DNA from: an uncultured Actinomycetota bacterium
GTDB lineage: Bacteria; Actinomycetota; Actinomycetes; Propionibacteriales; Nocardioidaceae
NCBI GenBank assembly: GCA_963815595.1
Contig: CAWFHA010000007.1
Span: 1,079,121 to 1,143,120 of the forward strand
DNA length: 64,000 bases
Direction: 5' to 3'
The notes below the pieces were generated by a model, which was not told where the DNA came from, ran no database searches, and saw nothing but the letters and a program-made list of their open reading frames with translations. The position numbers and the translations under genes are program-made. Below, one piece after another: positions 57,084-64,000 of the stretch (position 1 is the stretch's first letter; every line of letters starts with the position of its first letter).

Positions 57084-57259
57084 GTGCGAAAGGTGGGGTC
57101 CGGTGCGGGTCGACGTCAAGCCCGGAGGCCGGACCACGCTCATCGGCCCGGGGTCGTCTAGAACAGTGCCCGGCCGGCCTGACCGGACTGGCTAGCATCC
57201 GGAGGGCACAGGCGTCGATCGGACGCGGTTCGAGCAGCGGACGTGTCAGGGGGCCGAGC

Positions 57260-57874
57260 ATGCAGCGGCACGTGTGGCACGTCGAGGCGCCGCCGGGCCG
57301 CGAGGCCGGTCCCGGTGCGGGCGTCCGACCGCTGTCGTCCGGACCCGGCGCGGCGTCCGACGCCGCCCTGCTCCAGGGCTGCCGGGACGGGGAGGCCGAG
57401 GCGTGGGACGCCCTGGTCGGCCGTTACCAGGGACTCGTGTTCGGCGTGGCGCGACATGCGGGTGTCTCCCGCGACGAGGCCGCCGACATCACCCAGACGA
57501 CGTTCGTCGCGCTGCTCGACACGATCGACACCCTGCGTGCCGACGAGCGGCTCGCGGGCTGGCTGATCACCGTCGCCCGACGCGCGGCGTGGCAGGCACG
57601 GCGCCAGCACGAGCGCACCCAGGTGGTCGTACCGGCGCAGGAGGTCACGGACCCGATCGAGGACTGGGAGCAGGTCGCCTGGATGCACGAGTGTCTCCAG
57701 AGCCTGGCGGCTCCGTGCCGCGAGCTGCTGACCGCGCTCTACCTCGATCCGAGGACCCCGTCGTACAGCGAGGTGGCCGCCCGCACCCGGCGAGCGATCG
57801 GCACCATCGGGCCGATGCGCGCCCGGTGCCTGGAACGGTTGCGGGCCATCATGACCGACGGTGCCGAGCCTTGA
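57260..57874 (+). CDS. ECF sigma factor
   Basis: SDAALL..C..G...AWDALVGRY, LAGWLITVARR, SYSEVA, GTIGPMRARCLERLR. Confidence 0.92.
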   Translation: MQRHVWHVEAPPGREAGPGAGVRPLSSGPGAASDAALLQGCRDGEAEAWDALVGRYQGLVFGVARHAGVSRDEAADITQTTFVALLDTIDTLRADERLAGWLITVARRAAWQARRQHERTQVVVPAQEVTDPIEDWEQVAWMHECLQSLAAPCRELLTALYLDPRTPSYSEVAARTRRAIGTIGPMRARCLERLRAIMTDGAEP

Positions 57875-58521
57875 GGCCGCAGGACGACCCGCGCCCTGAC
57901 CTGCGTCGGCTGATCGACTGGCTCGACGGACGGCTCTCTCCGGCCGACGCGGATCAGGTGGCGCGTCGGGTGGCCGATCCCGACCCGCTCACCGCGGCGA
58001 CGCTGAGCTGGTTGCGAGGGTTCCGCACCATGGCGGAGTCGAGCTCGGGCCGGGACGTGCCGCCGCGGGTGCGCCAGGACCTGCGCCGGCACTTCGCGAC
58101 CTGGAGCCGTGAGCGGGCGACCGGCTCATCGTCGGCGACCAGGCTCACGGCGCGGCTGGTCTTCGACAGCCGCCTCGACCTGGCACCCGCGGGAGTGCGT
58201 GGCACCGTCGACGACGACACCTGGCACCTCGCCTACACCAGCGACGACGCCGACGTCGTGCTGGACCTGCGCCGGGTCGCGCGCCAGCGCGTGTGCGTCG
58301 ACGGACAGGTCCTGCTCGCCGACGAGGGCGGCGGAGCTCCGGTGTTCACCGCGGTCCTCACCGCCGGCGAGGAGCCGGTCGAATCGGCGCCGGCCGACGA
58401 GCTCGGCCGCTTCCGCCTGCCCGCTGTCCCCGAACGCCACGCGCAGCTGGTGGTCGGCAACGGCGAGCTCGAGCTGACCGTGCACCTGGACCTGGACCCG
58501 GCCCGGGGCGAGGCTCCGTGA
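57871..58521 (+). CDS. Putative soluble anti-sigma factor (ASD-like N-terminus + beta-sandwich C-terminus)
   Basis: TTGA overlap with sigma; LIDWLDGRLSPADADQVARRV; ARLVFDS..AGVRG; ADELGRFRL; no TM or HxxxCxxC. Confidence 0.65.
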   Translation: MRPQDDPRPDLRRLIDWLDGRLSPADADQVARRVADPDPLTAATLSWLRGFRTMAESSSGRDVPPRVRQDLRRHFATWSRERATGSSSATRLTARLVFDSRLDLAPAGVRGTVDDDTWHLAYTSDDADVVLDLRRVARQRVCVDGQVLLADEGGGAPVFTAVLTAGEEPVESAPADELGRFRLPAVPERHAQLVVGNGELELTVHLDLDPARGEAP

Positions 58522-61297
58522 GCTCGGAGCCGCTGGAGGCAGCCGCAGCCGACGAGGTGTCGGAGGACGTCGCGGACGAGGCCGAGCTCGACCGCCTGCT
58601 CCTCCGCGCGACCGAGCTCGTCCACGACGACCCCGCCGCCGCCGAGGAGCTGTGCCGGCGCTGCGACAGCGCCGCCGACCATCTCGGCCTGCCGGCGCTC
58701 AGCGCCCGGGCCCGCTACCTGCGTGCCCGGGTGCTGACCGAGCGCGGCGAGCTCGCACCACGGACTCGACGCTGATCGAGGACGCTCGCCGCCTGTGGTG
58801 GGAGGCGGGTGCACGCGTGCCGGCACTGCGCACGTCGCTGGGCCGGATGCAGATCCTCGACGACCTGGGACGGCACCGGGAGGCAGTCGTGGTGGGTGAG
58901 GAGACGCTGGCTGCTCTGGGCGCGCTGCCACGGGAGAGCGACGACGTCGAGCTCCGCAACTGGCTGGAGGCGGCGGTGCAGGAGAACCTCGGCGTGGCCT
59001 GGGGCTTCCTCGGCGAGCACGAGCACGCCCTGGACGCCTACCACGCCGCCGAGTCCGTCTACCGGTCCCTGGACCTGGAGGAGGAGACCGGGCGCCCGCT
59101 GGCCAACCGGGGCATCGAGCTGGTGGCGCTGGGCCGGGGCCGCGAGGCGCTGGAGGTCCTGCTCGCGGCCGGGGAGGTCTTCGACCGGTCCGGTGACCGG
59201 CTGTGGGCCGCCAAGTGCTCCGGTCACGCTGCCCAGGCCCACCAGCAGCTCGGAGAGCTGCTACCGGCCCTGCGCCAGGTGGCCCGGGCCAGGCTCGTCC
59301 TCGACGAGCTCGGGGCCGAGGCGGAGTCCGCACGCCTCCAGCTCACCGAGGCGGACCTCTACCTGGCGATCGGGCTCGTGCCGGAGGCGCGCACCGCGGC
59401 GACCTCGGCCGCGACCCGCACGGCTGTCGCCGGGATGCGGCACGACGCCGCGTGCGCACGGTTCGTGGTCGCCCTGGCCGACCTGGACGTCGGCGACCTC
59501 GCCCGGGCGGACCGGGCACTGCACACGGCCGGCGAGAGGTTCGACGAGGTGGGCGACCGGCACCAGCGCGCCCGGGTCGACCTGGCCCTGGCCGAGCTCC
59601 GCGCCCGCGAGGGACGCGCCGAGGAGGCGGTCACCCTGGCCGCCGGTGCGGCGCGGGCCCTGCGCTCGGGGTCGTGGCTGGTGCCGCTGGCCGCCGCCGA
59701 GCTGTGGCTGGCCGACGCCTCCGACGACCCCGAGGCGGTCTCGGAGCACCTCGACGAGGTGGAGCGGCTGCTCGAGCGGGTGCGCCTGCCGCAGGTCCGC
59801 GTGCGGTACCTGGTCCGCCGCGCCCGCCAGCGACGGGCGAGCGGGGCGACCGAGGAGGCCGAGGCGCTCCTGCGGGAGGCCGTCGCGGAGGTGGACGACA
59901 CCCGGGCGTCCCTCGGCGACGAGGGGTTGCGCCGGGCCTTCTTCGGGCGGCGCCTGGCCCCCCACGACGAGCTCGTGGACCTGCTGGTCGATCGGGGCGC
60001 ACCCGGTGACCACGCGGCAGCGCTGCTGGTCAGTGACCGCGGCAAGGCCCGCACCCTGGTCGACCTGGTGGAGGGAACGATCGGACCCCGCGCACCGGCG
60101 GCACCGGATGCCCTGCTGGCCGACCTGCACATCCTCTACGCAGAGCTGCTGTCGGTCACCGACCCCGTGCGCCAGCGCTCGCTGCGCCGCCGGGCCGACG
60201 ACCTCGAGAGACGAGTGAGCACCGAGCGGGTGCGGCGGGCCTCGACCGAGCAAGCGCCGCCCGTCGGCCGACCGATCGCCCCGACGACCTGGCCGGACCG
60301 CTTGCTGAGCTACCACACCGCGGGCGCCGACCTGGTCGTGTTCGTCTCGCTGGCGGGGAGCACCGAGGCGATCCGGCTCCGCGGGGCCGTGCCGCTCGTG
60401 CACGAGCAGCTGACCCGGCTCGAGGCTCAGTGGAGCCGGTTCCGGATGGGGGCGAGCCTGCGCCAGCGCTCCGGCGCCACCTTGCTGGCCACCACGCAGG
60501 AGATCCTCCAGCGGCTGCACGACCTGCTCGTCGAACCTGTCGCAGGCCTGCTCCGCGGCGGTGACGTCGGGGCAGCGCTGGTCGTCGCACCGTCACGGGA
60601 GGTGCTCGACGTGCCCTTCCACGCGCTGCACGACGGCAGCACCAGCCTCCTCGAGCGTTGGTCGGTCACGGTGGCACCGGCCGCGGCCGGGCTGCGTGCG
60701 CCGGCACCGGTCCCGTCCGCCCGTGCCCTCGTGCTCGCCGTCGACGACGACCGAGCCCCGTCCCTGGCGCGGGAGGCGCGTGCGGTGTCAGCGGCGCTGC
60801 CCCACGCCCGGGTGCTGGTCGGCGAGGCGGCCACGAGCGACGCGCTCGTGGCCGGCGCACACGACCTCGACATCCTGCACGTCGCCTGCCACGGCCTCTA
60901 CCGCTCGGGCAACCCACTGTTCTCCTCGCTGCGCCTCGCAGACCGCTCGCTCACCGCTGCCGAGGTCCTCGAGCTGGACCTGAGCGGCACCGTGGTCGTG
61001 CTCAGCGCGTGCGAGACCGGGCGGCAGGGCGGAGCCACCGCCGAGCCGGTCGGGCTGGCCTGGGCCTTCCTGGCGGCGGGGGCACGGGGGGTCGTGGTGA
61101 GCCACTGGCTGGTCGACGACGACGCCACCGCCGATCTGATGTCGGAGTTCCACGCTCATCTGGCCTCGGGCAACGACCCCGCGACGGCGCTGCGGCGGGC
61201 GCAGCTCGCCGTGGCCTCGACCAGGCCGCACCCCTACCACTGGGCGGCATTCAGCTACGTCGCGGCACCCGCTGCGACCCGATCGGAAGTGAGATGA
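58518..61297 (+). CDS. TPR-repeat CHAT (caspase-like) protease, frameshifted between 58755 and 58772
   Basis: TPR-like helices; LHVACHG (His) and VVLSACETG (Cys); N-terminal frame stops at 58775 while the main frame runs to 61297. Confidence 0.88.
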
Positions 61298-62538
61298 CGA
61301 TGCGTGCGATGCCACGAGTGTGGGTGCTCGGCCTGGTGGCCGGGGCGCTGCTGGTCCCCGGCCCTGCGGAGGCGGCGAAGTGCCCGCCGGGCAGCCTGGC
61401 CGAGGTGGTGGTCGGCATCGACCTCTCGGGACCACGCACGATCGAGCAGGTGACGTCCGGGCTGCCCGTCACCGTCGAACGTCCGCTGGTGCGGTCGCGC
61501 GGCATCTGGGAGGTGCGCTCCACCGACCCGGACTACTGCGGCACGCAGTCCGCGGCCCGCAAGCTGGCCAAGAAGATCGAGAAGGACGACGCGGTCCGGT
61601 ACGCCGAGGCGGGCTACCTCGCACAGGTGGCCGACGACCGGTTCCACGCCTGGGCCTCCGATGCCGCGAGCGAGCCGACGGCCGACGCACGTGCCTGGAC
61701 CGACCAGCCCGTGGTCGGCTCGCTCGGACTGGCTGTTGCCCACGGCCGATCCCAGGGCGCCGGGTCGGTGGTGGCGGTGCTGGACACCGGCGTCTCGCGC
61801 ACCCACCCGGCGCTGTCCGGATCTCTCCTCCCGGGGTGGGACTACGTCGATGACGACGCCTCACCCGAAGAGACCCGCAACGGCCTCGACGACGACCTCG
61901 ACGGCCTGGCCGACGAGTCGTTCGGGCACGGCACCTTCCTCAGCGGCCTGGTCCTCCTCGTCGCCCCCCGTGCACGGGTGCTGCCCATGCGAGTGCTGGA
62001 CAGCGACGGTCGCGGGAACACCTTCGTGGTCGCGCAGGCGGTCGCCGACGCCGTGACGGCGGGCGCGGACGTGATCAGCCTCAGCTTCGGCACCACCGTG
62101 AAGCCGGAGTCCACGGTGCTCGAGGACGCGTTGAAGCAGGCCAGGAAGGCGGGGGTGGTGGTGGTGGCTGCCGCGGGCAACACGGGATCCAAGACCGAGC
62201 AGTTCCCCGCAGCCAGCCACGACGTCGTGGCCGTCGGCGCGCTCTCGGCCGACGGGTCCGGGCTGGCCGCCTTCTCCGGCTCCGGAGGCTGGGTCGACGT
62301 CGCGGCGCCCGGGGAACAGGTCGCCGGCCCGGTGCCGGGTGGCGGGTACGCCTGGTGGGACGGCACGTCGGTGGCCACCCCGTTCGTCGCCGGCCAGCTG
62401 GCCTTGCTGCGCTCGCAGCGGCAGGCCGAGCACGCCGACAAGCTGGTGGAGCGTGTCGAGAAGACCGCTCGCCGTCTCGAGCCCCGGGGCCGTCCCAAGA
62501 CCGACGCCATCGACATCGTGGGCAGCCTCGGGCCCTAG
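61294..62538 (+). CDS. Secreted S8 subtilisin-like serine protease
   Basis: Signal peptide ending AEA-A; VAVLDTG (Asp), GHGT (His), AAAGN, GTSVATP (Ser); acidic DDDLDGLAD loop; ATGA overlap with CHAT. Confidence 0.93.
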   Translation: MTMRAMPRVWVLGLVAGALLVPGPAEAAKCPPGSLAEVVVGIDLSGPRTIEQVTSGLPVTVERPLVRSRGIWEVRSTDPDYCGTQSAARKLAKKIEKDDAVRYAEAGYLAQVADDRFHAWASDAASEPTADARAWTDQPVVGSLGLAVAHGRSQGAGSVVAVLDTGVSRTHPALSGSLLPGWDYVDDDASPEETRNGLDDDLDGLADESFGHGTFLSGLVLLVAPRARVLPMRVLDSDGRGNTFVVAQAVADAVTAGADVISLSFGTTVKPESTVLEDALKQARKAGVVVVAAAGNTGSKTEQFPAASHDVVAVGALSADGSGLAAFSGSGGWVDVAAPGEQVAGPVPGGGYAWWDGTSVATPFVAGQLALLRSQRQAEHADKLVERVEKTARRLEPRGRPKTDAIDIVGSLGP

Positions 62539-62789
62539 ACGGGCCTCGGGGTCGAGCGACCCGTCAGCTCGGACTAGTCCGACCGGGTGGTTCTCACGGG
62601 GGCTCTGGGATTTGTCGTGGACCGGTGCATCACCGGGTTCCCCGACGTACACCGCAGGCGCGCGTTAGCCCCTCCGACGGGGCCGTGACCAGTCTTGTCC
62701 TGCTCGCACCCGGCGACGAGCGTGAACCGCGCAAGCAGGCACGGGGGGCGGTCTCGCCCTCCGACGACGCAACAAACAGGAGAGCTGAC

Positions 62790-62972
62790 ATGTCACGTTC
62801 AGGTCTGGTCAAGGCGGTCAAGCCCGCCAAGTGTGGTGGCGGCGGGAAGTCGTCGAAGTCCTCGAAGTCCTCGAAGTCCTCGAAGTCCTCGAAGTCGAAG
62901 AAGTCGAAGAAGTCGAAGAAGTCCCACGGCCGCGGCTGCAGGTGCGGCTGTGGTGGTGGCGGCGGCTACTGA
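62790..62972 (+). CDS. 60-aa cationic Lys/Ser-repeat peptide with Cys/Gly tail
   Basis: AGGAGA RBS; MSRSGLVKAVKPAKCGGGG(KSS)5(KSK)3KSHGRGCRCGCGGGGGY. Confidence 0.75.
   Translation: MSRSGLVKAVKPAKCGGGGKSSKSSKSSKSSKSSKSKKSKKSKKSHGRGCRCGCGGGGGY
62847..62927 (+). repeat. Nine tandem 9-bp units (AAGTCSWMS) encoding KSS/KSK
   Basis: AAGTCGTCG, (AAGTCCTCG)x4, (AAGTCGAAG)x3, AAGTCCCAC. Confidence 0.9.
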
Positions 62973-62998
62973 GCCACGGAACGAGGATCATCCACCTC

Positions 62999-64000
62999 AT
63001 GGGGGGATCCACCCGCAGGCACGGAGCGGGGCCGTCGCACCGACGGTCCCGCTTCGGGCGCGTCCGCAGCACCTGCGCGGCTCCGGTGCGGCTGTGGCGC
63101 CGGCTCCTGGAGCCGGTGCGCGGGCCCCACGACCTCGTGCAGGACGCCCCGCCACTGACCCTGCGCGAGATCTTCGACCGGTTCTGGCCCGACGTGCGCC
63201 CCCTGCGTTGGTGGGTGGTGCTCAGCACGGCCCTGGGTGCCACGCTCTCGCTGATCACGCTCGTGGAGATCGCGCTGTTCAAGTACGTCGTCGACGACGT
63301 GCTCGTTCCCGCCGACCTGAGCCCGCTGATGTGGATCGGCGCCTGCTACCTGGGCCTGGCCGTGCTGTCCGGCCTGCTCTCCGGCCTCTCCTCCTATCTC
63401 TCGACCTGGCTCTCCCACACCTTCTTGGCCACGCTCCGCACGCGCGTGTTCGCCCACGTCCTCTCCCTCCCGCAGGAGGTGCACGACCGTCGCCGCCTGG
63501 GCGACTCGATGGTCCGCATCACCAGCGACTCCTCGGCGGTCGAGGGGTTCATGATCAGCACCTTCCGTTCGGGTGTGACCACCGTCCTGACAGCGGTGTT
63601 CTACCTCGGCGCGCTGTTCCTGCTCGACGTGCAGCTCGCGCTCTCCTCGTTGGTCATCGTCCCCATCTTCTGGTTCCTGGCGCAGCGCTTCGCGCGGTTG
63701 ATCAAGATCACCGCCCGTGAGCAGCGGCGCCGGGGCGGCTCGCTGTCGGCCGTCACCGAGGAGCACCTGGGCAACGCCGGCCTCGTGCAGACCTTCAACC
63801 GGCAGGCTGACGCGACCCAGCAGTTCCACAAGGAGAACCTCGGGATCCGCGCGGCCTCCCTCGCCGCGGTCCGGATCCGGGCGCTGTTCTCCCCCGTCGT
63901 GGACCTCGCCGAGCTGGTCGGGGTCCTGACCGTGATCGTGCTCGGGACCCACTCCTTGGCCAGCGGGCGACTCACCCTGGGTGGCCTGATGGCGTTCTTG
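62999..64000 (+). CDS. ABC exporter, transmembrane domain (runs off window)
   Basis: Open frame from ATG 62999: APPLTLREIFDRFWP, RRLGDSMVRITSD, EEHLGNAGLVQTFNR; absent from ORF track because no stop codon is reached. Confidence 0.85.
   Translation, partial: MGGSTRRHGAGPSHRRSRFGRVRSTCAAPVRLWRRLLEPVRGPHDLVQDAPPLTLREIFDRFWPDVRPLRWWVVLSTALGATLSLITLVEIALFKYVVDDVLVPADLSPLMWIGACYLGLAVLSGLLSGLSSYLSTWLSHTFLATLRTRVFAHVLSLPQEVHDRRRLGDSMVRITSDSSAVEGFMISTFRSGVTTVLTAVFYLGALFLLDVQLALSSLVIVPIFWFLAQRFARLIKITAREQRRRGGSLSAVTEEHLGNAGLVQTFNRQADATQQFHKENLGIRAASLAAVRIRALFSPVVDLAELVGVLTVIVLGTHSLASGRLTLGGLMAFL

What the first reader, a model, noticed from the sequence alone, without database searches (positions are those of the whole stretch)
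62790..64000. Tiny (KSS)n/(KSK)n Cys-tailed peptide between the subtilase and an ABC exporter
Seen: a 60-aa ORF with a good RBS, 15 Lys, 3 Arg, no acidic residues and 4 Cys. It has a short leader-like N-terminus (MSRSGLVKAVKPAKC), a Gly spacer, nine KSx units and a GCRCGC tail. An ABC exporter starts 26 nt downstream and a secreted protease lies upstream. Inference: a precursor peptide + exporter + protease trio for a secreted signal, antimicrobial or surface peptide, possibly the output or ligand of the CHAT/sigma cassette. The KxxK Ser-rich pattern recalls diatom silaffins (analogy only). Gene callers would easily miss it.
Basis: partly seen in the sequence, partly recalled or inferred. Interest (0 to 1): 0.8.

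Follow-up and report, generated by a model that had tools for sequence, protein, structure and literature searches.

The report
Conserved polybasic peptide–exporter–kinase module
The tiny lysine/serine-rich gene is real and conserved, and it is the first gene of an apparently undescribed three-gene unit (small very basic peptide, ABC exporter, stand-alone protein kinase) found in soil actinobacteria, often beside a sigma-factor/caspase-like protease cassette.

Summary
Observation confirmed. Window 62790-62972 (+) encodes a 60-aa peptide with a good ribosome-binding site, 15 Lys, 3 Arg, 16 Ser, 4 Cys and no acidic residue. An ABCB-type exporter starts 26 nt downstream.

It is a real gene. Thirteen orthologues keep the leader (M-x-RSG[LM]VKAVKPA), a Gly hinge, a variable (KSS)n core and a His/Cys tail. 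This is the only frame open in all 11 loci tested. Leader pN/pS is 0.34, against 1.2 and 2.9 in the shifted frames.

The conserved unit is not peptide+exporter+protease. It is peptide -> ABC half-transporter -> ~275-aa Hanks-type Ser/Thr kinase, whose start overlaps the ABC stop. The S8 protease belongs to a sigma/216-aa/TPR-CHAT/S8 cassette that about 20 loci carry without the peptide. All 13 KSS-type modules nonetheless sit beside that cassette, in tandem, divergent or convergent order. Arg-rich or Gly/His/Arg-rich versions in Nocardioides, Streptomyces and other MAGs do not.

Best reading (inferred, about 0.4): a leader-guided polycationic peptide is phosphorylated on Ser by the kinase and exported by the ABC. 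Its role outside the cell is unknown.

No Pfam or NCBIfam family, and no paper found, covers it. No RNA data exist.

The parts
62790..62972 (+). Peptide gene (60 aa + stop). Leader M1-C15 is 62790-62834, the Gly hinge 62835-62846, the (KSS)5(KSK/KKS) core 62847-62924, the His/Cys/Gly tail HGRGCRCGCGGGGGY 62925-62969.
   Evidence: Conserved in 13 loci, selection tested in 10-11.
62778..62782 (+). Ribosome-binding site AGGAG, 7 nt before the ATG.
   Evidence: Similar GGAG/AGGA motifs precede the ATG in the orthologues.
62570..62701 (+). Conserved non-coding boxes upstream of the peptide: CGGACTAGTCCG (62570-62581), TGCATCA (62626-62632), ACACCG (62649-62654), CGCGTTAGC (62661-62669), CCAGTCTTGTCCT (62689-62701). 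Probably the module's own promoter/operator or 5' leader.
   Evidence: CCAGTCTTGT is found only here in the window and in L001-L008. The boxes travel with the module in divergent and convergent arrangements. No Rfam match, no consensus RNA fold, no sigma-70 consensus.
62999..64000 (+). ABCB/MsbA-type ABC half-transporter, cut off by the window end (about 620 aa in L001). It has a ~70-aa Arg/Ser-rich N-terminal extension and no C39 peptidase domain.
   Evidence: It is 95% identical to the L001 ABC.
61294..62538 (+). Secreted S8 subtilase. Its start ATG overlaps the CHAT stop (ATGA). It is a member of the sigma/CHAT cassette, not of the peptide module.
58652..61297 (+). TPR-CHAT (caspase-like) protein. 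The start is uncertain. No signal peptide or membrane helix is evident.
   Evidence: Pfam CHAT 3e-53. NCBIfam Csx29 6e-12, below its cut-off.
57871..58521 (+). 216-aa protein with no family match, always between sigma and CHAT. Candidate soluble anti-sigma factor (inference).
57260..57874 (+). ECF-type sigma factor.
   Evidence: Pfam Sigma70_r2 4e-12. TIGR02937 above its cut-off.

Best explanation
The ORF encodes a ribosomally made, leader-bearing, extremely basic low-complexity peptide. It is the first gene of a three-gene operon: peptide, ABCB-type half-transporter, soluble Hanks-type Ser/Thr kinase. Proposed mechanism: the conserved ~13-residue N-terminal motif ([ST]-[GSA]-[LF]-[VLF]-x-[AG]-[VLT]-x-P-A) acts as the recognition handle. 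The cytoplasmic kinase phosphorylates the many Ser residues that sit next to Lys/Arg. This masks the charge, which may protect the producer's nucleic acids and ribosomes from a +10 to +18 polycation, or mark the peptide as cargo. The ABC exporter then moves the peptide out. Outside the cell it acts through bulk charge (binding polyanions such as membranes, wall polymers or nucleic acids, in the manner of antimicrobial peptides or protamine) and perhaps through its His/Cys tail (metal or disulfide chemistry). In the KSS subfamily the module is functionally tied to the neighbouring ECF sigma / 216-aa / TPR-CHAT / S8 cassette, as a regulated output or as an input. The secreted S8 is a candidate leader or core protease. 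SHOWN: the gene is real and under protein-level selection; the three-gene unit is conserved; the kinase keeps its catalytic residues; the ABC has the exporter fold and lacks a peptidase domain; the module recurs next to the CHAT cassette. INFERRED: phosphorylation of the peptide, its export, and its extracellular role. My estimates: real coding gene 0.9; cargo of the ABC 0.65; substrate of the kinase 0.5; polyanion-binding or antimicrobial role 0.3.
For: Coding: only frame open in all 11 loci tested, leader pN/pS 0.34 against 1.2 and 2.9, exclusive AAG Lys codons, Ser kept across TCN<->AGC switches, RBS. Module: the peptide is followed within 19-26 nt (window, L001) by an ABC gene whose stop overlaps the kinase start by 4 nt in 10 of the 11 loci with gene calls (L061 has a 17-nt gap); the overlap is not shown base by base for L002-L008, L023 or the window, whose kinase lies beyond its end. 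The cassette-only loci have no such peptide, ABC or kinase. Family: 13 KSS-type plus 4 Arg- or Gly/His/Arg-rich members (and 2 doubtful ones) share the leader motif but keep only the composition of the core (net +6 to +18, 0-3 acidic residues). Repeat number varies between loci and within soil populations (9-nt deletion in run X4). Kinase: K56, E75, HxD149, N154, D166, PE188-189 and R260 are invariant. The model is confident (pLDDT 89.6) and closest to PknB, Aurora, CaMK and AMPK. ABC: MsbA/ABCB/Sav1866-like exporter fold. Link to the cassette: 13 of 13 KSS-type modules are adjacent to it, in tandem (window, L001-L008), divergent (L023, L056, L062) or convergent (L057) order.
Against: There is no transcript, ribosome-profiling or peptide data. 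No phosphatase, leader peptidase domain or other tailoring enzyme is conserved in the module. The Streptomyces member has one Ser, one Thr and one Tyr in all, so multi-Ser phosphorylation cannot be universal. The kinase could instead regulate the ABC through its Ser/Thr/Arg-rich N-terminal extension. Some ABCB-fold transporters of actinobacteria are importers (my own knowledge). The upstream boxes match no promoter consensus that I could recognise, and they differ from the box upstream of the sigma gene. Control by that sigma is therefore unproven.
Confidence: 0.4

Rival explanations
1. Signal peptide for the neighbouring switch. The peptide, exported and possibly trimmed by S8, or acting inside the cell, is the ligand sensed by the TPR domain of the CHAT protease. 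That protease then cleaves the 216-aa anti-sigma-like protein and frees the ECF sigma. This would be an autocrine or quorum-like loop.
For: All 13 KSS-type modules lie beside the sigma/216-aa/TPR-CHAT cassette, in three different gene orders. TPR-CHAT proteins controlling ECF sigma factors have precedent in DdvA/DdvS and Craspase (PMC11506125; NCBIfam Csx29 hit). TPR domains commonly bind peptides (my own knowledge).
Against: Sigma, the 216-aa protein and CHAT show no signal peptide or membrane helix, so an exported ligand would need re-import (direct reading). The core is conserved in composition only and varies in repeat number, which is unlike specific signalling peptides. Arg-rich family members lack the cassette. 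About 20 cassettes lack the peptide.
Confidence: 0.12
2. Metal-handling peptide. The His/Cys tail (H-G-x-G-C-x-C-G-C; (GGH)n in Streptomyces) binds Cu, Zn or Ni. The module exports a metal chelator or a peptide-metal complex.
For: His and Cys cluster near the C-terminus in all 13 KSS-type members. Two Arg-rich members share C-x11-C. The Streptomyces member has six His in GGH/DHGG units.
Against: Cys count falls to 2 (L023, L057) and to 0 in L054 and L059. Most of the peptide is a polycation with no metal ligands. No metal-regulator or metal-transport gene is consistently adjacent. The role of the kinase is left unexplained.
Confidence: 0.12
3. Regulatory upstream ORF. Translating the polybasic peptide stalls or paces ribosomes and so tunes expression of the ABC-kinase pair 26 nt downstream. 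The peptide itself has no function in trans.
For: The ORF lies 19-26 nt before the ABC start where measured (window, L001). Polybasic nascent chains slow ribosomes, and ABC genes are often controlled by leader peptides (my own knowledge).
Against: Conservation is strongest at the N-terminus, not at a C-terminal stalling site. Ser and Lys/Arg content is kept across codon-family switches and across K-type and R-type cores. There is a second conserved motif, the Cys/His tail. No conserved RNA structure or terminator was found. At 50-67 aa with a strong RBS it is larger than typical attenuator peptides.
Confidence: 0.1
4. Precursor of a heavily modified RiPP (lanthipeptide-like or azole-containing). 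Phospho-Ser would be eliminated to dehydroalanine and cross-linked to Cys or Lys.
For: The core contains Ser plus Cys. The kinase's best NCBIfam hit is the kinase part of class IV LanL (7e-30). Gly/Ser/Cys tails recall microcin B17 (my own knowledge).
Against: The LanL score (104 bits) is far below the cut-off of 650 and equals the PknB score. No lyase, LanC-like cyclase, YcaO or radical-SAM gene is in any of the neighbourhoods read. Repeat-number variation is unlike a ring-forming core.
Confidence: 0.05
5. Not a functional gene: a chance ORF in a GC-rich repeat.
For: It is low-complexity sequence. Other frames are also open in the window itself.
Against: It is conserved, with a leader motif, in 13 loci plus distant relatives, always in the same position relative to ABC-kinase. 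pN/pS is 0.34.
Confidence: 0.03

Closest known systems
Leader-containing bacteriocin/RiPP precursors with a dedicated ABC exporter (e.g. NisA/NisT, McjA/McjD, double-glycine peptides with PCAT transporters)
   Same: A small precursor gene lies directly before an ABC exporter. The N-terminal leader is conserved and the core is variable. A Gly run follows the leader.
   Different: The ABC has no C39 peptidase domain. There is no canonical double-glycine leader. The core is a repetitive polycation rather than a defined sequence. The only candidate tailoring enzyme is a Hanks-type kinase.
Class III/IV lanthipeptide synthetases (LanKC/LanL) and other phosphorylated RiPPs (paeninodin, pseudomycoidin, phospeptin, kinase-bearing cyanobactin pathways; list in PMC12639078)
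   Same: A protein-kinase-fold enzyme is encoded next to a Ser-rich (and here Cys-containing) precursor.
   Different: The kinase here is a stand-alone ~275-aa domain with no lyase or cyclase. Its similarity to LanL is no better than to PknB. The known phospho-RiPP kinases are HPrK-type or embedded domains (PMC12639078). Phosphorylation is untested here.
Protamines and SR proteins with SRPK kinases; histatins; Bacillus CotG/CotB with CotH kinase (my own knowledge)
   Same: These are arrays of Ser beside Lys/Arg that serve as multi-site kinase substrates, where phosphorylation masks charge. L055 ends in a literal RS repeat (NRSRSRSRTN). Histatin 5 is a K/R/H-rich, metal-binding antimicrobial peptide ending in GY.
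   Different: There is no sequence homology and the organisms differ. These are analogies of composition and logic only.
Diatom silaffins
   Same: Lys- and Ser-rich repeats. In silaffins the Ser are phosphorylated.
   Different: Silaffins are eukaryotic secretory-pathway polyproteins with polyamine-modified Lys. No homology or shared machinery exists, and a silica role is untested.
ECF sigma controlled by a TPR-CHAT protease (DdvS/DdvA of Myxococcus, PMC11506125; type III-E Craspase Csx29-Csx30-RpoE)
   Same: The neighbouring cassette pairs an ECF sigma with a TPR-CHAT protein and a small unknown protein.
   Different: Here the CHAT protein is separate and apparently cytoplasmic, not fused to a transmembrane zinc anti-sigma domain. 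A secreted S8 protease is part of the operon. No CRISPR genes were seen.

Membership tests
Class III/IV lanthipeptide system | Core peptide with Ser/Thr and Cys | tested here: met
   16 Ser and 4 Cys.
Class III/IV lanthipeptide system | Kinase specifically related to LanKC/LanL kinase domains | tested here: inconclusive
   LanL model 104 bits (cut-off 650), equal to PknB-PASTA 104 bits. LanKC 40 bits. PDB and fold neighbours are PknB, StkP and Aurora.
Class III/IV lanthipeptide system | Phospho-Ser/Thr lyase and LanC-like cyclase, fused or adjacent | tested here: not met
   The kinase is 245-321 aa with a Pkinase domain only. No such domains occur in any neighbourhood read.
Double-glycine bacteriocin with PCAT exporter | C39 peptidase domain at the N-terminus of the ABC transporter | tested here: not met
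   Only ABC_membrane and ABC_tran were found. The N-terminal 70 aa are Arg/Ser-rich with no family match.
Double-glycine bacteriocin with PCAT exporter | Canonical leader ending in GG/GA | tested here: inconclusive
   A run of 3-5 Gly follows the leader, but the leader is 13-15 aa and unlike known GG leaders. P0001 and P0002 from other metagenomes do have GG leaders with K/S-rich, Cys-tailed cores.
TOMM / microcin B17-like | YcaO cyclodehydratase/dehydrogenase genes adjacent | tested here: not met
   None in the neighbourhoods read.
Phosphorylated RiPP (generic) | Kinase encoded with the precursor | tested here: met
   The kinase is in the same operon in every module read.
Phosphorylated RiPP (generic) | Peptide is phosphorylated in the mature product | not testable with these tools
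   Needs mass spectrometry or a kinase assay.
Silaffin | Homology, eukaryotic secretory processing, polyamine-modified Lys, silica precipitation | not testable with these tools
   Only the composition is alike. No family match.
Attenuator / leader-peptide uORF | Conserved RNA switch (terminator/antiterminator or SD-sequestering hairpin) coupled to the uORF | tested here: not met
   No consensus structure with covariation, no terminator, no Rfam family. These scans cover the 5' region; the 26-nt gap to the ABC start is too short for a switch.
ECF sigma / TPR-CHAT anti-sigma switch (context) | ECF sigma plus a TPR-CHAT protein in one operon | tested here: met
ECF sigma / TPR-CHAT anti-sigma switch (context) | CHAT fused to a transmembrane zinc anti-sigma domain (DdvA type) | tested here: not met
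   The CHAT protein is separate from the 216-aa protein. No membrane helix or zinc motif is evident (PMC11506125).

The most novel reading that the evidence does not exclude
A previously unrecognised class of ribosomal natural product or secreted effector in Actinomycetota. These would be leader-guided polycationic (K/S, R/S or G/H/R) peptides whose only tailoring enzyme is a dedicated Hanks-type kinase. The kinase would act as a charge-masking 'safety catch' before ABC export. In one lineage the system would be wired to a caspase-like (TPR-CHAT) sigma/anti-sigma proteolytic switch.
Probability: 0.25. Interest if true: 0.8.

Novelty: new variant of a known kind. Interest (0 to 1): 0.66.

Why it matters
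If the inference holds, this is a simple and widespread way for soil actinobacteria to make and safely export highly charged peptides. Phosphorylation by a eukaryote-like kinase would be the only modification. Phosphorylation is rare among ribosomal natural products (PMC12639078). Such peptides could be antimicrobials, envelope or matrix modifiers, or metal binders. The recurrent link to a sigma/TPR-CHAT/S8 cassette gives a handle on what that widespread but uncharacterised caspase-like regulatory cassette controls or senses. The case also shows a blind spot. None of the ten peptides looked up is in a 15-billion-protein collection, none of those scanned matches a curated family, and they are often uncalled or apparently called in another frame.

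Tried and rejected
1. A protein search with the peptide gave only two weak hits, P0001 and P0002. An exact look-up showed that none of ten family members is in the collection, so further protein searches for the peptide were pointless.
2. Two metagenome scans found no relative. The protein-pattern scan had 600 pattern matches and none confirmed. The DNA-pattern scan had one hit, a chance match inside gyrB.
3. Rfam found nothing, RNAalifold found no covarying structure, and the promoter/terminator scan and a hairpin test after the S8 stop (z = 0.15) were negative. A riboswitch or attenuator reading is therefore rejected.
4. I looked for the peptide's upstream boxes in front of the sigma gene to test direct sigma control. 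They are not there. The sigma gene has a different conserved box.
5. I asked whether the ABC reading frame could extend over the peptide as an acidic (EVL)n N-terminus. This is rejected on codon usage and on stops in the orthologues.
6. PADLOC gave only generic kinase, ATPase and subtilase similarities, with no defence-system assignment.
7. No RNA-seq runs exist.
8. I looked for conserved acidic residues in the ABC membrane helices as a hint of a cationic cargo. Some exist, but this is not diagnostic.
9. Four literature searches for such a module found nothing. Two others gave only context papers.
10. The context of P0002 sits on a 1.3-kb contig and is uninformative.
Full report
**1. The observation**

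The window is 72.6% G+C. At 62790-62972 (+) there is a 60-codon ORF. It is preceded by AGGAG (62778-62782) seven bases before the ATG. The product is MSRSGLVKAVKPAKCGGGGKSSKSSKSSKSSKSSKSKKSKKSKKSHGRGCRCGCGGGGGY. It has 15 Lys, 3 Arg, 1 His, 16 Ser, 13 Gly, 4 Cys and no Asp or Glu, for a net charge of +18. Tandem Repeats Finder reports 9-nt units over 62846-62924.

An ABC transmembrane domain (PF00664, 1e-37) begins at ATG 62999, 26 nt after the stop, and runs off the window. Upstream lies an S8 subtilase (61294-62538; PF00082, 2e-42) with a Sec-type signal peptide.

**2. Is it a gene?**

GC3 is 0.85 in the peptide frame. The frame of the ABC gene is also open across the region in the window. 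It would read (EVL)n using only the rare GAA codon, which is unlikely to be coding.

Using the S8 protein as an anchor, I fetched 51 loci from GTDB representative genomes. L001-L008 are soil Actinomycetota MAGs with S8 identity of 59-80%. All eight carry the same small ORF directly after S8. Further members came from neighbourhoods of kinase homologues (L056, L057, L062) and from L023.

Three comparative results support coding:
- Across 11 loci the peptide frame is the only one without stops in every locus.
- For leader codons 2-12, pN/pS is 0.34, against 1.20 and 2.93 in the two shifted frames.
- All 123 Lys codons are AAG, and Ser is maintained although loci switch between TCN and AGC codons.

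L007 has one extra base just after the ATG. This is a frameshift or an assembly error. One soil run carries a contig with a 9-nt deletion, one KSS unit fewer. The repeat number is therefore polymorphic in nature.

**3. Anatomy of the family**

The 13 KSS-type members share four parts:
- a leader, M-x-R-S-G-[LM]-V-K-A-[VLM]-K-P-A, usually followed by K-C;
- a run of 3-5 Gly;
- a (KSS)n / (KSK)n / (KSH)n core of variable length;
- a tail such as S-H-G-x-G-C-x-C-G-C-G-G, GGGHHHGCGCGCGS or SHGSKSHGC.

More distant members keep a related leader but have different basic cores.
- **L059** has SGFFTATKPAF followed by R16.
- **L055** (Nocardioides) has SSLFDALAPA followed by CRRFKNKKRRRRC and an RS repeat.
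- **L061** has FTAVYPAL followed by CRKRRNRRARQRC.
- **L054** (Streptomyces) has FTALFPAL followed by (GGH)n(GGR)n and a final GGY.

Net charge is +6 to +18, with 0-3 acidic residues. What is conserved is therefore the N-terminal motif and the composition of the rest.

**4. The real gene neighbourhood**

A tblastn synteny table shows two separable units.

- **Unit A** is ECF sigma, a 216-aa protein with no family match, TPR-CHAT and S8. It is present in L001-L024 (L011 is truncated upstream), L026-L028 and L045, and in recognisable form in other phyla (L030-L044).
- **Unit B** is the peptide, an ABC half-transporter of about 620 aa, and a protein of about 275 aa. It is present only in the window and L001-L008 (after S8) and in L023 (opposite strand).

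The 275-aa protein is a Ser/Thr protein kinase (PF00069, about 1e-31). In 10 of the 11 gene-called loci its start overlaps the ABC stop by 4 nt; L061 has a 17-nt gap. The window ends before this gene, but its ABC is 95% identical to that of L001.

A search with the kinase found 325 proteins at E <= 1e-30; the 120 listed are 212-336 aa. Ten of their neighbourhoods were read, including L001's own contig. All ten show ABC-kinase, and in each I read a small basic ORF in front, doubtful in L058 and L060. Loci that have only the cassette contain no such peptide.

So the protease is not part of the conserved trio. The kinase is.

All 13 KSS-type modules nonetheless lie next to unit A, in three arrangements:
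- tandem in nine (the window and L001-L008);
- divergent from sigma in three (L023, L056, L062);
- convergent with S8 in one (L057).

None of the six Arg- or Gly/His-type modules does. Some of those sit beside another ECF sigma (L054) or a two-component system (L060, L061). Repeated adjacency in different gene orders argues for a functional link, but it does not give the direction of that link.

**5. The partners**

*Kinase.* The invariant residues are the beta-3 Lys, alpha-C Glu, H-x-D catalytic Asp, Asn, the D of D-L-S (in place of DFG), P-E, and the subdomain XI Arg. The Gly-rich loop is degenerate and the kinase is of the non-RD type. The AlphaFold model is confident (pLDDT 89.6). Its nearest solved structures are PknB, Aurora, CaMK, AMPK and ULK1. 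By sequence the nearest are StkP and PknB. The best NCBIfam hit is the kinase part of class IV LanL (104 bits). This equals the PknB-PASTA score and is far below the cut-off. The kinase has no membrane or sensor domain.

*ABC.* It has the MsbA/ABCB1/Sav1866-type exporter fold, with one TMD and one NBD. There is no C39 peptidase domain. The N-terminal extension of about 70 aa is rich in Arg and Ser.

*Other genes.* No lyase, cyclase, YcaO, radical-SAM or phosphatase gene is conserved nearby.

**6. Regulatory DNA**

The 225-273-nt spacer before the KSS-type peptides contains strongly conserved boxes:
- GGACTAGTCC;
- TGCATCA-N16-18-ACACCG;
- CGCGATAAC;
- CCAGTCTTGTCC.

CCAGTCTTGT occurs nowhere else in the window or in the first 51 loci. 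The boxes accompany the module in the divergent and convergent arrangements.

They match no Rfam family, give no covarying fold, and match no sigma-70 consensus. The sigma gene has a different conserved box, GTCGTCTAGAACAG at 57153-57166. Direct control of the peptide by that sigma is therefore not demonstrated. No RNA data exist for this organism. Only soil-metagenome DNA runs hold it.

**7. Interpretation**

The combination points to a leader-guided, exported polycation whose Ser residues are substrates of the kinase. The combination is:
- a conserved short leader;
- a core conserved only in charge and in Ser/Gly content;
- a cytoplasmic kinase translationally coupled to an exporter-fold ABC;
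- Ser flanked by Lys/Arg.

Phosphorylation would mask the charge. The same logic applies to protamines and SR proteins with SRPK, or to CotG with CotH (my own knowledge).

I rate the steps as follows:

| Step | Estimate |
|---|---|
| Real gene | 0.9 |
| ABC cargo | 0.65 |
| Kinase substrate | 0.5 |
| Polyanion-binding or antimicrobial role | 0.3 |

Rival readings are a signal for the TPR-CHAT switch, a metal-binding peptide, a regulatory uORF and a lanthipeptide-like RiPP. They are given with their evidence in the Rival explanations section. The weakest point of the main model is the Streptomyces member, which has a single Ser.

**8. Comparison with what is known**

It works like a bacteriocin or RiPP precursor with a dedicated exporter. 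It fails the defining tests of three families:
- PCAT/double-glycine systems (no C39 domain);
- class III/IV lanthipeptides (no lyase or cyclase);
- TOMMs (no YcaO).

Known phosphorylated RiPPs are few. They use HPrK-type kinases, LanM-like enzymes or an embedded cyanobactin kinase domain (PMC12639078).

The neighbouring cassette resembles the DdvS/DdvA and Craspase/RpoE logic (PMC11506125). It differs in having a separate, apparently cytoplasmic CHAT protein and a secreted S8.

No Pfam or NCBIfam model matches any of the six family members scanned, nor the two unrelated K/S-rich peptides P0001 and P0002. None of the ten members looked up is in the 15-billion-protein collection. Six literature searches found no description of such a module.

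**9. Verdict**

The feature is a real, conserved and apparently undescribed small-peptide family embedded in a peptide-ABC-kinase module. I class it as a new variant of the precursor-plus-exporter kind. Its function is inferred, not shown.

Noticed in passing
window 62570-62701; L001-L008, L056, L057, L062 upstream of the peptide: There is a set of strongly conserved non-coding boxes: palindrome GGACTAGTCC, TGCATCA-N16-18-ACACCG, CGCGATAAC, CCAGTCTTGTCC. They travel with the KSS-type module in every gene order. They match no Rfam family, RNA fold or sigma-70 consensus. They may be an unusual promoter or operator.
   Followed up: partly
window 57153-57166; L001 5872-5882, L002-L005: A conserved GTCGTCTAGAACAG box lies 95-230 nt upstream of the ECF sigma gene. 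It contains the rare CTAG, as does the palindrome upstream of the peptide. Whether the two share a regulator is unknown.
   Followed up: partly
window 57260-62538 and about 30 related loci: The four-gene cassette (ECF sigma, 216-aa protein with no family match, TPR-CHAT, secreted S8) has overlapping stops and starts. It is conserved across Actinomycetota and is recognisable in Ignavibacteriales, Planctomycetota, Zixibacteria and others. It looks like an uncharacterised cytoplasmic caspase-like sigma/anti-sigma switch.
   Followed up: partly
L007 11468-11480: There is one extra base right after the peptide's ATG, which puts the start out of frame. This is either a real frameshift or an assembly error in this MAG.
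   Followed up: no
window 62853 (run X4): A soil-metagenome contig carries a 9-nt deletion, one KSS unit fewer. Loose read ends in the same runs show other K/S repeats ending in ...HPHGCG, ...RSRC* and ...GRNC*. This suggests many more variants in soil.
   Followed up: partly
L054 6894-7097 (Streptomyces sp. NPDC014889): The record on file calls an overlapping ORF in another frame (VITVAATAAATVV...), although that frame has the higher GC3. An ORF with a strong RBS, and a leader like that of L061, gives MAIFTALFPALNRDH(GGH)n(GGR)nGGY.
   Followed up: partly
P0001, P0002 (ENA metagenome contigs; L063): These are two unrelated small proteins with classical double-glycine-type leaders (...VTGG, ...VAGG). 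Each leader is followed by a K/S-rich core and a Cys-containing tail. They may be convergent analogues in other phyla. Their contigs are too short to show context.
   Followed up: partly
L001 14389-15297 (-); L003 4726-5628, L004 2096-2989, L005 4762-5664: An APH-family phosphotransferase (69% identical between loci) flanks the seven-gene block, on either side, in four loci. This may be leftover synteny or a further partner.
   Followed up: no
window 62818-62991 (-): An antisense ORF reads (STS/RTS)n with GC3 of 0.70. It did not pass the same ORF filter in the other loci, and all three antisense frames carry stops in some loci. It is treated as a by-product of the repeat.
   Followed up: yes
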